This document shows, one piece after another, positions 21,001-33,000 of a stretch of DNA of 64,000 nt. Origin of the DNA: Octopus vulgaris (Eukaryota). Every line of letters starts with the position of its first letter. The stretch's first letter is position 1. The position numbers are program-made. The stretch lies in the NCBI GenBank assembly GCA_951406725.2, contig OX597825.1, forward strand, positions 84,568,001 through 84,632,000, written 5' to 3'.

Positions 21001-24000
21001 CGAAATGGCCATAAATGCTACATCAAAAGACATGCAGCAGAAACACGTGTCAGGTTAGGATTTTAATGTGAATTTAATGAGAATAATACTATAATAAACA
21101 AACTATTAACATGTATACTTCTCCATTCTTCTTCATTATGTCTATCTATCTATCTTTCTTTCTATCCCATCCATCCATCCAACCATCCGTCTATTTATCT
21201 ATCTATCTATCTATTTATTTAGATTTGTTAATACTTTAAAATTACCGTGTTGTGGCACTACTGGGGTACAGCCTTTAAAGATATAGTTTATTATACTGAT
21301 CATAGGAATGGAGTAAATTAGAACATGTCTAATCTGTTTATGAATGAGACTTGTTCCTTCGAGACAAGAGGAGCAGAAAGATCACGAAAAACATCGACTT
21401 GTAAATAACAGTCACACATTTTTGTAACCTCAGTGGTTAAATTTAAAAGGGTAGTTATATAAATGACGCACTCTGTATACATATTGGTACAAGCGCATAC
21501 TCACTCACTCATACTAATGCTCACAAATATACTTGCACATAGTATCAAAAGAATGAGCTTGATCGTCTCTCGGTTTCAACGCTAAGCTACTTTCATATGT
21601 CATTCTGCATAAAAAATGGATCTACAAATACAATATCCCTACATATGTTTCATCTATTTTCTTTCCTCCATCACACTCTCTATTTTGTATCCTATCTAAA
21701 CTATTACTTAACCATCCTCTCTGATGAAGAGATATTATTAATAAATATCCTGGAAACAGCTGTAAAGCCTTCTATCTATAAATGTTCTATCTACAGAGCA
21801 TTGGTTTTTTATCGCATTACGCAAAAAATTCTTATATATAATACATTTGTTTATTTGTACTCCACCTGCCTTCGTCTTTTGTTTATTTTCGTAAACATTC
21901 CCGTTATATATATATGTGTATACAGAGAGAGAGAGAGAGAGAGAGATTTAAATGTGCATATGAATATATGTTTGTGCATGGACATAAGCAATTTGAAGAC
22001 CATTGTTCCATTGTAAACATCCCGACTCGTCACACACATATATAGAGATAAATTTAGCACATACACTTATATTTATGTCTTCACAAACGCAGGCGCAAAC
22101 ACATCGCACGTCTATAGGTCCCCAAAAGCAAGCAAGCGCGGACGCAGACGCACACCCACTCATCCACAATCACAATCACACATGTTTATTCATTTAGAAA
22201 GGATGTACAGGCGTTTATACTTCCGCATGCTTCCTCACACATACAAATACATACCCATATACATATACACATAATGCTTTGAAGTATGTTTTCTAAATTT
22301 TCTCTTGTTCATATGCTGGGAATTCCGCCCAAACCTCATCAAGTGGCGATGAAATAAGGTGCCAATAAAGACCCACTTTATTACACATATACTACCAAAA
22401 AACAAAACAATACAAAAGCCTGGATCAAAAAGGTGTGAGTAGTGCGCTGGATCTGATGTTTCCATATATTGATGTACGGCCTGCTTCTTATTCTATGACA
22501 ATTAACAGAACTGAAGGTTATGTCAACCGATCTGTTATGAGCTGAATCACAAATCACTGCTTTTGAAAAATGTTGATCGATAAGCTAGTAATTCAATATT
22601 TATATCGTTATTTGCTAGTACGGGGATGATATTTAATATTGTTATTATATTTCCCAATCTTTCTATCCAACAATATTACATATTAAATTAAAAGGTGTTT
22701 GTGTTTGTATTAGAAAACAATATTTTATCCGAGAATGGTAAAATCAAGCATTAAATTTCATTTCCTTTCAGAAATAATTAAATTTCTTCAAGAAACACAA
22801 TTTACTTGTAACCAAAGAATTTAAAGAATTGAAATCTCAGAATTCATGAGATATTTCGATATGTTCATTCGTTTTCATAACTTTCTATTTTTGTTGTTGT
22901 TCTTTTCGTCATTTTCTCAGAGGAAGAATTACATTACTTATGGTTTTATAAATTTGAAGGCTTCGAAAATTGGAAGGAGAAAGACAGGAAATCATGCTGA
23001 AATAGGAAACCTGACCCAGTTGTTTGCCAAGAATGAGGAACTCTGCTAGGAATAGACAAGGAACATAGAATGGTGTTCAACTGGCGAAAATGTCTGCAAA
23101 TTAATATCTCAGAATACACAGCTAACAGTATGAATGTATAAATATATGTAGACATGTGTATGTGTATATATATATATATATATATATTAATTTATTATAT
23201 AGAAGGAGCTTCTACAGGACTAGTACTGTTTCATTCAAGAGAAATCTTCAGGAAGCTATTTAACAAGAATTGTATTAGCATTTATACATTTAGGCAGGTT
23301 TAAAGGAGTGGTGGTGGGGGACTTTTTTGGGGGTAGGCATAGCGCAAAATATCATACTTGGGGGAGTGGTCAAGGAGTCAGTGGTAAGTTAGATGAAAGA
23401 ATAGATAAATAAAAAAATAAAATAATAAAATAAAAAAATAAAAAAATAAAAAAATAAAATAATAAAAAAATAAAAAAATAAAAAAATAAAAAAATAAAAA
23501 ATATATATAAAAAATATATATATAAAAAAATATATATATAAAAAAAAGGGGGGATAGAGTTATAGGTAAATAAGGAGATTCTCACTTGTACCTATACACA
23601 CATGTATACGTATCTACACACATATATATACTCATATATATATACACATATATATATATATATACACATATACATATATACACATATACATACATATCTA
23701 CATACACACATACATACACCCGCCCACATATACAAATTTATACACATGCACATGCATATACCTGTCTACACATACACACACGTATATATGCATACACTCA
23801 CTCCCATGCATGCACGCATACACACATGTATACATATACACACGACCACACATACATATATACACAGAAAAATATATATTCATACGCACATACACTCATG
23901 CACACACAACACACCTAGTTCCCTATATACACATATTTACACCTATATATACATACACCCACATACACATATGTACATATATATATATATACATATATAT

Positions 24001-30000: not shown

Positions 30001-33000
30001 AATTAAAATTAGGGAATGGGCCTGTATTGGATTGTATATATATATATATATATATATATATATATATATGTATGTATGTGTGTATGTGTAGGTATGTATA
30101 GGTACACATGTGTATGTGTGTGTGTATGTATATGTGTATATGTATGTATGTGCACACATGTATATATATGTATGCGTGTATATGTATATATATATATATG
30201 TATATATATATATATGTACATATGTGTATGTGGGTGTATGTATATATAGGTGTAAATATGTGTATATAGGGAACTAGGTGTGTTGTGTGTGCATGAGTGT
30301 ATGTGCGTATGAATATATATTTTTCTGTGTATATATGTATGTGTGGTCGTGTGTATATGTATACATGTGTGTATGCGTGCATGCATGGGAGTGAGTGTAT
30401 GCATATATACGTGTGTGTATGTGTAGACAGGTATATGCATGTGCATGTGTATAAATTTGTATATGTGGGCGGGTGTATGTATGTGTGTATGTAGATATGT
30501 ATGTATATGTGTATATATGTATATGTGTATATATATATATATATATGTGTATATATATATGAGTATATATATGTGTGTAGATACGTATACATGTGTGTAT
30601 AGGTACAAGTGAGAATCTCCTTATTTACCTATAACTCTATCCCCCCTTTTTTTTATATATATATTTTTTTATATATATATTTTTTATATATATTTTTTAT
30701 TTTTTTATTTTTTTATTTTTTTATTATTTTATTTTTTTATTATTTTATTTTTTTATTTTTTTATTTTTTTATTTTATTATTTTATTTTTTTATTTATCTA
30801 TTCTTTCATCTAACTTACCACTGACTCCTTGACCACTCCCCCAAGTATGATATTTTGCGCTATGCCTACCCCCAAAAAAGTCCCCCACCACCACTCCTTT
30901 AAACCTGCCTAAATGTATAAATGCTAATACAATTCTTGTTAAATAGCTTCCTGAAGATTTCTCTTGAATGAAACAGTACTAGTCCTGTAGAAGCTCCTTC
31001 TATATAATAAATTAATTTTACTCTGCTATGTATTGAGTACCTTACTTACTGTGGTTAACCCCGAATCAACCCGGGACCTATATATATATATATATATATA
31101 TATATATATATATATATACGTACATATATATATATATATATATATATATATATATATATATATATATATATATATATATATATATATACGTACATACATA
31201 TATATATATATACGTACATATATATATATATATATATATACATATGTGCGTGTGTACGTTTGTGTGTCTGTGTTTGTCCCCCCAATATCGCTTGACAATC
31301 GATGGTGGTGTGTTTACGTCCCCGTAACTTAGCGGTCCGGCAAAAGAGCCCGATAGAATAAGTACTAGGCTTAGAAAGAATAACTCCTGATGTCGATTTG
31401 CTCGACTAAAGGTGGTGCTCTAGCATGGCCGCAGTCAAATGACTGAAACAAGTTCAAAGAGTACACACACACAAACACAAACACACACACACAAATATAT
31501 CTTTATATATAAAAGTGAAGTTGTGTGTCTGTCTCCTACGATTTAGATTCCTAACTACTCCCACATTTTGCGGTGCAGTTTAACCAAAACCGGGTATCTT
31601 ATAGTCGTGATTCATATCGAGGTCTTCTGGTTATTAGCGCGCGTCTACGATGAGTCTACGATTAAAAAAAAATTTACCATCATTTTTTCCATTTTAATGC
31701 ATTTTTTCGCTATTATATAAGGGAAGTAACTCTTTAAAAATGTTTACGATGAGTCAACGATGAAAAAAAGAATTTACCATCATTTTTTTCCATTTTAATG
31801 CATTTTTTTGCTATTTTTTGGCTATAACTCTCTAAAAATGCTTATATAGTTATTTCCCTTATAAACCCGAGCAACGCCGGGCGATACTGCTAGTATATAT
31901 ATATATACACATATGAGAAATATTGGTACCCAGAGGATCCAAGTTGGCAGGTAAGGCTATGTAAGTGCTATGGAAGGACCGTAGTTAAAATCTCGATTAG
32001 CTAATGATATGAGTGAGGAGACGTGTGTGAGAATGTATATGTTAAATAAAACGAGACAACAAAGCAAAGGCTGTGTGGAATAAAGAGAAAGGCAGTCTTA
32101 CAGCTGTTTCTGAGATATTAGGGATATCCCTTCATCAGTGACGGTTAAATATAGGGAAATAATAGAGTTCAGTTTGAGGAGTTATTTTGGAAAATGAAGC
32201 AAATAAGAAGTATATAGGGAAATAGGGGAATGGATGTAGAAATAGAAATAAAAATGTATAAAGATGTTATAGTTGCCGCCCTATGATTCAAGGAAAGTGC
32301 TGTGTAGAAGTGGTAGAAATGATTCCTGTCCGTGGTACGTAAATTTCAATATCCCAAATATCCCAGAAACAATTGTAAGACTAACTTTCTCTTTATAAAT
32401 ATCCTGAAAATTCCACACAGCCTTGATTTTGTTGTCTCATTTTATTTAACACACACACACATATAAGTACATAAGTACATGTGTATAGTCTTAAGTAGAT
32501 ACACTCATATGTGCCTGCATGCTAACGATAAACTAGACGCGTGCATGTGCCTGTGAGATAGAAAAAGAGAGGGAGACAGAGAGAGTGATTCAGAGAGAGG
32601 AAGATAAATATGTACGAATGAGAGTAAGTGTATGGTGAAATGGGCGTATGATAGGAAGAGAGAAAGAGGAAGAGAGAGAGAGAGAAGCGGACATATAGAT
32701 AGATATGTTTCTTTATTAGCCACACAGGGCTGCACACAGACAGGACAAATTACAAGGTAGAGCTTTTCTTTTGGGGATAAGAAAGGGGGTTTGGTTTTCG
32801 ATCAAAAGGGATCGTAATATAGATAAGTAGACTGACAGATAGATTGGTTTATATTATTTTACGAACGGAACGTATACGCAAACTGGCACACACACGTGCA
32901 CGAACTTACACGCATCCACACACATACACACACTCATGCAACCGAAAATACATGTATATCTGAATATATATATATATATATATATATATATAAATATAAA

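What the first reader, a model, noticed from the sequence alone, without database searches (positions are those of the whole stretch)
23186..31080. Young Penelope-like element whose multi-kb terminal region is built from microsatellites and forms a ~2.5 kb near-perfect inverted repeat
Seen: the RT/GIY-YIG ORF is followed by a ~3.7 kb 3' region (26872 down to 23186) that is mostly degenerate CA/TA repeat with a few unique islands. Its distal 2.5 kb is present again inverted at the 5' truncation point. The arms differ mainly in repeat lengths plus a few substitutions (e.g. 24441). Known: PLEs often insert as 5'-truncated copies with an inverted pLTR, but described pLTRs are usually a few hundred bp. 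Inference: this family carries kilobases of apparent 'microsatellite' as cargo and spreads it by retrotransposition, so part of this genome's simple-repeat load may be element-borne. A read-through transcript would also fold into very long dsRNA (ADAR/RNAi substrate).
Basis: partly seen in the sequence, partly recalled or inferred. Interest (0 to 1): 0.8.

Follow-up and report, generated by a model that had tools for sequence, protein, structure and literature searches.

The report
Octopus Penelope-like twin insertion, microsatellite tail
A recently inserted, broken copy of a Penelope-like jumping gene, probably in an octopus genome, carries several kilobases of microsatellite-like DNA inside its own boundaries, and its two-sided insertion copied 2.5 kb of it into a near-perfect inverted repeat.

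Summary
The arms 23186-25854 and 31016-28542 differ by 6 substitutions, 10 small repeat-length indels and one 212-nt left-only block. The ORF on the minus strand matches a profile of 88 relatives (RT E 2.6e-126, endonuclease E 3.7e-56). Its motifs fit the Hydra clade of Penelope-like elements (PLEs). It lacks the first 185 profile positions and has two 1-nt homopolymer frameshifts, so this copy is dead.

The key new result is a hammerhead-ribozyme-shaped motif in the layout curated for Hydra-clade PLEs. It sits 21 nt from the outer end of each arm. (TA)n flanks both sides, and one end has a 62-nt extension. So the microsatellite-rich 3.7 kb lies between the stop codon and a PLE-type 3' terminus, inside the retrotransposed unit.

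This is the known PLE inverted twin insertion, scaled up. What is unusual is the tail: 3,687 nt, against whole-element lengths of 2.1-2.6 kb for six newly described Hydra families.

Whether other copies of the family carry this tail could not be tested, because no octopus DNA collection was available. The dsRNA, ADAR and RNAi ideas are also untested. I rate it a new variant of a known kind, of moderate interest.

The parts
23165..23185 (.). (TA)n tract directly abutting the left outer end; the left half of the presumed (TA)n target
   Evidence: Perfect TA tract 23165-23187; sequence read
23186..25854 (-). Left arm: the distal 2.67 kb of the 3' region of the main copy (element sense is the minus strand)
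23207..23257 (-). Hammerhead-ribozyme-shaped motif, 21 nt from the unit end. Helix I is 6 bp, the core is CTGAAGA, helix II is 3 bp, then GAA, helix III is 4 bp, and the site nucleotide is A.
   Evidence: Descriptor scan: this site and its mirror are the only 2 hits in the window, and 0 of 100 simulated windows had a hit. The layout matches Hydra-clade rows in the Craig 2021 supplement. Rfam models did not call it.
23405..23546 (-). (ATAAAAAA)n array inside the terminal region
   Evidence: TRF
24163..24473 (-). Unique island C, origin unknown, present in both arms
   Evidence: no protein-database hit for its ORF
24824..25342 (-). Higher-order tandem repeat within the CA/TA sequence: period 212, 2.5 copies, 90% matches
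   Evidence: TRF, (mirror at 28857-29351)
25346..25557 (.). 212-nt block present only in the left arm, lying in a (TA)n tract. It is either a later insertion or a deletion in the right arm.
25855..26872 (-). Proximal part of the 3' region, present only in the main copy. It includes unique island A (26287-26493) and the roughly 80-nt unique post-stop stretch (26796-26872).
26876..27502 (-). C-terminal ORF piece (209 aa): CxCX5C linker plus GIY-YIG-like endonuclease; stop codon at 26873-26875
   Evidence: Profile E 3.7e-56. All 19 invariant columns are kept. AF2 model pLDDT 84. Top Foldseek hits are T4 EndoII and I-TevI, but with E >= 0.2.
27445..27549 (-). 35-aa bridge read in a third frame between two 1-nt homopolymer deletions (C-run 27535-27540, T-run 27495-27498)
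   Evidence: profile match at positions 492-508, E 0.056
27510..28475 (-). Reverse-transcriptase ORF piece (322 aa), 5'-truncated at profile position 186
   Evidence: Profile E 2.6e-126. There were 581 longer relatives at E <= 0.001 and 7446 representatives. Pfam RVT_1 gave only E 0.016.
28458..28541 (-). About 85 nt of filler of unknown origin at the head-to-head junction between the two copies
   Evidence: no profile match; no other copy in the window
28542..31016 (+). Right arm: an inverted, more severely 5'-truncated second copy consisting only of the distal 3' region (2,475 nt)
30945..30995 (+). Mirror copy of the hammerhead-shaped motif
31017..31078 (+). 62-nt extension present at this end only, read as the one-sided PLE 'tail'
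   Evidence: It is unique in the window. The concept comes from Craig 2021 and Frangieh 2024.
31079..31245 (.). Long (TA)n, the right half of the presumed target, followed by a SINE fragment at 31260-31420

Best explanation
The stretch 23186-31078 is the product of one retrotransposition event of a Hydra-clade Penelope-like element into a (TA)n tract. The host is probably an octopus.

Shown:
- The outer end of each arm is the same element terminus, carrying a hammerhead-shaped motif.
- One end has an extra 62 nt.
- Both flanks are (TA)n.
- The two copies meet head to head. One is truncated inside the RT. The other is truncated 2.5 kb from its 3' end.

Inferred mechanism, from published in-vitro work on another PLE clade: the element's protein cut both DNA strands, and each 3' end primed reverse transcription of element RNA from the 3'-terminal initiation region, using two neighbouring start sites. 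Both cDNAs stopped short and were joined through about 85 nt of filler.

Because both cDNAs carry the same order of islands and CA/TA blocks, the template RNA itself contained a 3.7-kb 3' region. That region is mostly microsatellite-like and lies between the stop codon and the ribozyme-bearing terminus. About 4.3 kb of low-complexity sequence was therefore laid down by this one event.

The copy is dead on arrival. It cannot transpose by itself.

I think the long tail most likely belongs to the source lineage's own 3' UTR, enlarged by repeat growth and nested insertions. That step is inferred, not shown.
For: 1. Arms: 6 substitutions in about 2,447 aligned positions, with the other differences being repeat-length indels.

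2. ORF family: the profile of 88 relatives matches at E 2.6e-126 and 3.7e-56. The ORF has the CxCX5C linker, the CxxC and CxH motifs, and Y...YIG, R, H, E and N all conserved. Relatives carry the RWK and DKT motifs. These are the features listed for the Hydra clade in Craig 2021 section 11.

3. Hammerhead-shaped motif: the only 2 hits in the window are the two mirror sites, and 0 of 100 simulated windows gave a hit. The layout (CTGANGA followed by T, helix II, TGAA, a helix III starting AC, a site nucleotide, helix I) is the same as in the 11 Hydra-clade rows I saw in the supplement. As I read that table's columns, the ribozyme there ends roughly 30-150 nt before the consensus end. Here it ends 21 nt before the left end and 83 nt before the right end including the extension.

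4. Target: a (TA)n tract abuts the left end, and another starts 62 nt beyond the right end. From the 48 perfect (TA)>=8 tracts in the other 53.5 kb of the window, my arithmetic puts the chance of both at about 1.6e-4. The supplement rows I saw list (TA)n as the insertion preference for Hydra families, including the octopus one.

5. A one-sided extension and an inverted 5'-truncated neighbour are described as typical of PLEs. Cutting and extension of both strands, with two adjacent start sites that explain the tail, were shown in vitro.

6. Youth: no stop in 531 codons. The simulated probability of that is 0.27 at 2% divergence and 0.05 at 5%.

7. An Octopus vulgaris protein record (P0189) is 92% identical over 106 residues.
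Against: - Rfam covariance models do not recognise the motif as a hammerhead. There was no hit at gathering score in the window and none at E <= 10 in 23170-23400.
- I wrote my descriptor after seeing the site.
- The motif's fold is not thermodynamically special: -7.3 kcal/mol for the hammerhead structure, -8.5 for the MFE, and -6.9 +/- 2.3 for shuffles.
- Helix II has only 3 bp and loop III has 8 nt, against 4-7 bp and 1-3 nt in the rows seen.
- The two arms are identical here, so there is no covariation evidence.
- Hydra elements are described as under 3 kb, so this tail is far outside the clade's norm.
- Pfam finds no GIY-YIG domain and only a sub-threshold RVT_1 match. No PDB sequence hit was found. 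Foldseek E-values are all >= 0.2.
- The origin of the 62-nt extension is not proven; it has no other copy in the window.
- No second copy of the tail was available to show that it is heritable element sequence.
Confidence: 0.75

Rival explanations
1. Composite template. The RNA was a read-through transcript from an ordinary short Hydra element, across about 3 kb of host microsatellite-rich DNA, into a separate downstream solo terminus (a heavily 5'-truncated copy), where reverse transcription then started. On this reading the tail is transduced host DNA from one source locus and is not a property of the family.
For: - Newly described Hydra families have whole consensus lengths of 2078-2601 bp, with the octopus family at 2507 bp.
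- Elements of this clade land in (TA)n, and PLEs cluster, so two copies lying close together in repeat-rich DNA is plausible.
- Islands A, C and B show no similarity to one another and none matches the ORF profile.
- The degenerate repeats, with a 212-nt higher-order unit, look old.
Against: - An ordinary upstream copy should carry its own ribozyme-bearing terminus within a few hundred nt of the stop. None is there. The core regex found nothing on the element strand between 25468 and 26876. The descriptor found nothing outside the two arm ends. Rfam found no hammerhead at E <= 10 in 26250-26900.
- Only about 80 unique nt follow the stop before the repeats begin.
Confidence: 0.2
2. DNA-level palindrome. 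An ordinary PLE insertion next to host microsatellite DNA was followed by an inverted segmental duplication of the flank (fold-back or break repair). Gene conversion may be keeping the arms alike, in which case arm identity says nothing about age.
For: (TA)n tracts are hairpin-prone and plausible breakpoints (general knowledge). Large palindromes with converting arms are known in other genomes (general knowledge). The 212-nt arm difference shows the arms have had separate histories.
Against: - Both outer ends coincide exactly with a terminus that has the clade's ribozyme layout.
- The duplicated arm does not carry the left flank. It carries a 62-nt extension at one end only, which is a described PLE signature.
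- The arms are separated by a 2.7-kb spacer with the ORF in it, not joined at a fold-back point.
- The ORF has no stops. That supports a recent event independently of arm identity.
Confidence: 0.04
3. Assembly artefact: a chimeric or fold-back long read, or a mis-join in repeat-rich sequence, created the inversion.
For: PLE tandem and inverted structures are said to cause assembly problems (Craig 2021). The two ORF frameshifts are 1-nt homopolymer contractions, and most arm differences are repeat-length changes. Both are typical of long-read consensus errors.
Against: - A fold-back chimera would give arms that meet without a spacer and are identical. Here there is a 2.7-kb unique spacer, 6 substitutions, a 212-nt indel and a one-sided 62-nt extension.
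- The layout matches a known biological architecture in detail.
Confidence: 0.03

Closest known systems
Hydra clade of Penelope-like elements, e.g. Hydra-1_Obim of Octopus bimaculoides (Craig et al. 2021, PMC8557442; I read section 11 and supplement passages)
   Same: C-terminal endonuclease with a CxCX5C linker and the CxxC and CxH motifs. Relatives carry the RWK and DKT motifs. A hammerhead of the same layout lies close to the 3' end. Insertion is into (TA)n. The host is a cephalopod.
   Different: The described consensus is 2507 bp in all. Here the region after the stop codon alone is 3,687 nt and 69% microsatellite-like. The ribozyme letters differ from the Hydra-1_oBim row, so this is another family or subfamily. 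Helix II is shorter and loop III longer than in the rows seen.
Classical PLE complex insertion: a main copy with an inverted 5'-truncated copy at its 5' end and a one-sided 30-40-bp tail (Craig 2021, passages; Frangieh et al. 2024, PMC11167929, main text read)
   Same: Head-to-head 5'-truncated copies, identical outer termini, an extension at one end only, and an AT-rich target. Cutting and extension of both strands explains the arrangement.
   Different: The inverted arms are 2.5 kb and almost entirely 3' non-coding repeat. The extension is 62 nt rather than 30-40. There is no direct pLTR.
Chlamys PLE families lengthened by internal tandem repeats (Craig 2021, section 9 passage)
   Same: PLE units whose length is increased by internal tandem repeats.
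   Different: They belong to a different clade (N-terminal endonuclease; green algae and protists). The text I saw does not describe kilobases of degenerate CA/TA microsatellite in the 3' region.
Microsatellite seeding by LINEs in snakes (PMC6050309 and PMC3157835; search listing and abstract starts only)
   Same: Retrotransposition spreads simple repeats carried at an element's 3' end.
   Different: As I recall it, those are short 3'-terminal microsatellites of LINEs that expand after insertion. Here a multi-kb, already degenerate repeat block lies internal to a PLE unit.
L1-type 3' transduction (recalled general knowledge)
   Same: Extra sequence downstream of the ORF is moved together with the element.
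   Different: There is no canonical element end before the extra sequence and no poly(A). The unit ends in an element-type terminus on both arms.

Membership tests
Penelope-like elements (endonuclease-positive) | Reverse transcriptase domain of the PLE family | tested here: met
   The 322-aa piece matches a profile of 88 relatives at E 2.6e-126. There were 581 longer relatives and 7446 representatives. Pfam RVT_1 gave only E 0.016, below its cut-off. That the relatives are PLEs rests on motif agreement with Craig 2021, not on a tree.
Penelope-like elements (endonuclease-positive) | Phylogenetic placement of the RT among PLE clades, next to telomerase RTs | not tested
Penelope-like elements (endonuclease-positive) | GIY-YIG endonuclease fused to the RT | tested here: inconclusive
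   In favour: Y84, Y99-x-G101, R110, H114, E169 and N182 are all invariant and present. The AF2 model has pLDDT 84. The best three Foldseek PDB chains are T4 EndoII, with I-TevI at ranks 6 and 9 and Hpy188I at rank 24; that these are GIY-YIG nucleases is recalled. Against: all E-values are >= 0.2, Pfam finds no domain, and there is no PDB sequence hit.
Penelope-like elements (endonuclease-positive) | Hammerhead ribozyme motif in the terminal repeat | tested here: inconclusive
   The descriptor hits only 23207-23257(-) and 30945-30995(+), with 0 of 100 simulated windows, and the layout matches curated rows. But there is no Rfam hammerhead hit, the descriptor is post hoc, there is no covariation, and cleavage is untested.
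Penelope-like elements (endonuclease-positive) | Complex insertion: 5' truncation, an inverted 5'-truncated neighbour, and a one-sided tail | tested here: met
   compared with the description.
Hydra clade of PLEs | CxCX5C linker; no CCHH; CxxC and CxH around the conserved E and N | tested here: met
   C63, C65, C71; C163, C166; C191, H193 in the window's own piece. The absence of CCHH was judged by eye from that alignment.
Hydra clade of PLEs | RWK motif and DKT (instead of DKG) in the N-terminal part | not testable with these tools
   This copy lacks profile positions 1-185. Relatives show RWK or RWR (P0005, P0020, P0001) and DKT, including the O. vulgaris fragment P0189.
Hydra clade of PLEs | Insertion into (TA)n | tested here: met
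   A (TA)n tract abuts 23186, and another begins at 31079 after the 62-nt extension.
Hydra clade of PLEs | Short unit (generally under 3 kb) | tested here: not met
   The truncated main copy alone spans 28541-23186, which is 5,356 nt. A full-length version would be about 5.9 kb or more. This is a typical feature of the clade rather than a defining one.
L1-type 3' transduction | A canonical element 3' end, then flanking DNA, then poly(A) after a downstream signal | tested here: not met
   There is no element terminus or hammerhead near the stop and no poly(A) at either outer end. The outer ends carry the element-type terminus.

The most novel reading that the evidence does not exclude
An active cephalopod lineage of Hydra-clade PLEs has a multi-kilobase, microsatellite-rich 3' UTR as a heritable part of its unit. 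On that reading, each two-sided insertion plants kilobases of CA/TA repeat and, often, kilobase-scale near-perfect inverted repeats. PLE retrotransposition, not only slippage, would then account for a measurable share of the octopus simple-repeat load. It would also supply long hairpin-RNA and palindrome loci (longest perfect duplex stretch here about 455 bp) in a genome known for heavy A-to-I editing.
Probability: 0.3. Interest if true: 0.65.

Novelty: new variant of a known kind. Interest (0 to 1): 0.45.

Why it matters
PLEs are reported to make up 6.83% of the Octopus vulgaris genome, with 31 recently active families (PMC13282606; section 7 and a supplement passage read). Their published link with microsatellites is as insertion targets.

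This locus shows, for at least one event, the reverse relation. A PLE template carried about 2.6 kb of CA/TA-type sequence, and the two-sided insertion laid down about 4.3 kb of it at once, as a 2.5-kb inverted repeat.

If this recurs in the family, it would matter in three ways:
- Repeat annotation: such tails would be masked as simple repeats and the elements cut short.
- Assembly of these regions.
- The supply of long dsRNA-forming loci.

If it does not recur, it is a well-preserved natural example of the dual-strand priming and one-sided tail seen in vitro for another PLE clade.

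Tried and rejected
1. Rfam. Nothing reached gathering score in the window. At E <= 1 the region gave only microsatellite-driven miRNA-family matches among the 150 of 189 rows shown. Focused scans of 26250-26900, 23170-23400 and 25340-25560 gave no hammerhead.

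2. An apparent match of island A (26306-26371, minus strand) to the ORF's N-terminus (E 5.1; alignment). I rejected it because an N-terminal sub-profile run over the whole window in six frames did not recover it.

3. Similarity among islands A, B, C, D, the post-stop stretch and the junction. Only two weak pairs appeared (z 4.4 and 6.0), and neither links A to B.

4. Other copies of the islands, ORF, junction or extension within the window. None were found.

5. Other copies via the protein collection, using the open frame over island C. No hit. Non-coding DNA is unlikely to be in that collection, so this says little.

6. PDB sequence search with the family profile: 0 hits.

7. ARAGORN on 22000-32500: no tRNA. 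My impression of a tRNA-like arm in the 62-nt extension is therefore unsupported.

8. Literature on PLE read-through or transduction: one unrelated L1 paper.

9. Pfam on 14 other open frames in the window: only a mariner HTH.

Full report
**What is there**

The repeat finder and blastn found it. A global alignment places the left arm at 23186-25854 and the right arm at 31016-28542. Over 2705 columns the arms differ by:
- 10 indels of 2-8 nt, all in repeat tracts;
- one 212-nt block found only in the left arm (25346-25557).

The alignment also has a 16-nt end effect. The two largest unique islands are 215 of 215 and 310 of 311 identical between the arms. The longest stretch without any difference is about 455 bp, by my arithmetic.

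Between the arms lies a 2.7-kb spacer. It consists of the proximal 1 kb of the 3' region (25855-26872) and an ORF on the minus strand.

**The 3' region**

From the stop codon (26873-26875) down to 23186 is 3,687 nt. By a purine/pyrimidine-alternation mask over 23186-26875, 69% is CA/TA-type low complexity. The figure for the rest of the window is 12.5%, and the longest such block outside the unit is 312 nt. TRF shows degenerate 2-8-nt units at 61-80% matches, plus a 212-nt higher-order repeat at 90%. So 'built from microsatellites' is fair, with the qualifier that they are old-looking and degenerate. Unique islands lie at 26796-26872, 26287-26493, 24163-24473 and 23193-23585.

**The ORF**

It reads in three pieces:
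- 28475-27510, 322 aa;
- a 35-aa bridge;
- 27502-26876, 209 aa.

The pieces are separated by two 1-nt deletions, in a C-run (27535-27540) and a T-run (27495-27498). Pfam is nearly blind to this ORF: RVT_1 scores E 0.016 and no endonuclease domain is found.

The large protein collections hold many relatives of about 700 aa (581 at E <= 0.001; 7446 representatives). A profile I built from 88 of them matches:
- the RT piece at E 2.6e-126 (profile positions 186-494);
- the bridge at E 0.056;
- the C-terminal piece at E 3.7e-56 (positions 508-703 of 706).

The copy therefore lacks the first 185 positions but runs to the natural C-terminus. There is no stop in its 531 codons. Under random substitution, the probability of that is 0.27 at 2% divergence and 0.05 at 5%.

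In a 30-sequence alignment the window's piece keeps all 19 invariant columns:
- C63, C65, C71 (CxCX5C);
- Y84, Y99, G101, R110, H114, E169, N182;
- C163/C166 and C191/H193.

An AlphaFold2 model of this piece has mean pLDDT 84. Its best PDB matches are T4 EndoII (three chains; best E 0.2, probability 0.80), I-TevI (ranks 6 and 9) and Hpy188I (rank 24). I recall these as GIY-YIG nucleases. No match reaches E 0.001, so the fold evidence is suggestive only.

**Which family**

Craig et al. 2021 (PMC8557442, section 11, read) define the Hydra clade of PLEs by these features:
- a C-terminal endonuclease without CCHH;
- a CxCX5C linker;
- CxxC and CxH around the conserved E and N;
- an RWK motif, and DKT instead of DKG;
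- canonical hammerheads;
- insertion into (TA)n;
- small size (under 3 kb).

The window's piece shows the linker and the two cysteine motifs. Its relatives show RWK or RWR and DKT. The closest named relative is an Octopus vulgaris record, P0189, 92% identical over 106 residues. The host is therefore probably an octopus. I made no tree, so clade membership rests on motifs.

**The decisive feature: the terminus**

The paper's supplement (passages only) lists an octopus family, Hydra-1_Obim. [quoted passage not shown] The supplement also tabulates the hammerheads of Hydra families.

As I read its columns (start, then total length including two 20-nt flanks, which fits the sums), the ribozyme ends roughly 30-150 nt before the consensus end. 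This holds in all 11 rows for which I saw both numbers.

Near each outer end of the unit I found a 51-nt site with the same layout (right-arm coordinates):

| Element | Coordinates |
|---|---|
| Helix I (6 bp) | 30945-30950 with 30990-30995 |
| Core CTGAAGA | 30951-30957 |
| Helix II (3 bp) | 30959-30961 with 30966-30968 |
| GAA | 30970-30972 |
| Helix III (4 bp) | 30973-30976 with 30985-30988 |
| Site nucleotide | 30989 |

The mirror site is 23207-23257 on the minus strand. A descriptor of this layout hits only these two places on both strands of the window, and hits none of 100 simulated 64-kb windows.

Caveats:
- The descriptor was written after I saw the site.
- Rfam does not call it.
- The fold is not unusually stable.
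- Helix II is short and loop III is long compared with the rows seen.
- The two copies are identical, so there is no covariation.

The motif ends 21 nt before the left end (23186). It ends 83 nt before 31078 if the 62-nt right-hand extension is counted.

**Flanks**

A (TA)n tract abuts 23186. On the right, after 62 unique nt (31017-31078), a long (TA)n runs from 31079 to 31245, followed by a SINE fragment. The rest of the window has 48 perfect (TA)>=8 tracts in 53.5 kb. My arithmetic from that puts the chance of a tract ending within 3 nt on one side and starting within 65 nt on the other at about 1.6e-4, assuming independence.

Craig et al. describe a 30-40-bp 'tail' often present at only one end of a PLE insertion, and an inverted 5'-truncated copy at the 5' end. 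Frangieh et al. 2024 (PMC11167929, main text read) showed for a Poseidon-clade protein that both DNA strands are cut and extended. They also showed that reverse transcription starts at two neighbouring internal sites, and that the tail is the sequence between them.

**Reading**

All of this fits one event. A Hydra-clade ribonucleoprotein cut a (TA)n tract. Both ends primed cDNA from the element's terminal initiation region, one starting 62 nt further out. One cDNA stopped after 2.5 kb, and the other stopped inside the RT. They were joined through about 85 nt of filler (28458-28541), which matches nothing else.

Both cDNAs contain the same islands and repeat blocks in the same order, so the template RNA contained them. 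About 4.3 kb of low-complexity sequence arrived in one step (my arithmetic).

**Age**

The event is recent. The arms differ at about 0.25% of aligned positions. With the clock quoted in PMC13282606 (Jukes-Cantor 0.09 for 25 My; section 7 read), that is on the order of 0.3 My. This is an inference, and reverse-transcriptase errors would make the true age lower.

**What remains open**

The family-level claim is untested. The window has no second copy. No eukaryotic DNA collection was available. A try through the protein collection found nothing.

Three observations bear on the origin of the tail:
- Against a general property of the clade, the six newly described Hydra families seen have consensus lengths of 2078-2601 bp.
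- For internal repeats being possible in PLEs, Craig et al. note Chlamys families lengthened by tandem repeats.
- The 336 recently active PLE insertions in O. vulgaris cover 1.83 Mb, a mean of 5.4 kb by my division.

The main rival for the tail's origin is a composite read-through from a short element into a downstream solo terminus. The argument against it is that no terminus or hammerhead follows the ORF.

A DNA-level palindrome or an assembly fold-back fits poorly. Both are hard to reconcile with the spacer, the one-sided extension, the arm differences and the element-type termini. Only long reads can exclude them.

The dsRNA, ADAR and RNAi consequences are plausible from the 98.6% complementarity, but no expression data were seen.

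**Limits of the literature seen**

- Craig 2021: abstract, section 11, text passages and supplement passages, not the whole supplement or its figures.
- Cervera and De la Peña 2014 (PMC4209133): passages only.
- The snake microsatellite-seeding papers: listing only.
- The 2026 retrozyme preprint: abstract and outline only.

Noticed in passing
25346-25557: A 212-nt block present only in the left arm and sitting in a (TA)n tract. It contains a 34-nt copy of sequence found about 90 nt upstream (25294-25327 repeated at 25383-25416) and a unique part with no other copy in the window. It is either a very recent insertion or a deletion in the other arm.
   Followed up: partly
28458-28541: About 85 nt of filler between the inner end of the right arm and the start of RT homology. 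It matches neither the ORF profile nor anything else in the window.
   Followed up: partly
27535-27540 and 27495-27498: Both ORF frameshifts are 1-nt contractions of homopolymer runs, 40 nt apart, in an ORF otherwise free of stops. They could be real mutations or long-read consensus errors.
   Followed up: no
31260-31420; also 2719-2875(-), 7801-7912(-), 47368-47475, 59356-59439(-), 48953-49015: Several copies of one SINE-like repeat, each adjoining TA/TG microsatellite. The PLE's right-hand (TA)n target belongs to one of them.
   Followed up: partly
37304-37798 (+): An open frame with a Mos1-type transposase HTH (Pfam HTH_48, E 5.3e-10), i.e. a mariner-family fragment.
   Followed up: no
23186-31245: Dozens of sub-threshold Rfam matches to mir-297, mir-466, mir-1277 and mir-3149 (29-59 bits against gathering scores of 81-100). 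All fall on TA/TG repeats and are artefacts of repeat self-complementarity.
   Followed up: yes
1100-2300, 45830-46300, 47900-48480, 59920-60620, 62000-62540, 63570-64000: Long low-complexity arrays (mono-, di- and tri-nucleotide-like), which give long homopolymeric open frames in several frames.
   Followed up: no
24824-25342 and 28857-29351: Inside the CA/TA sequence there is a 212-214-nt higher-order tandem repeat (about 2.3-2.5 copies, 90-91% matches). The block therefore grew partly by unequal exchange or duplication, not only by slippage.
   Followed up: no
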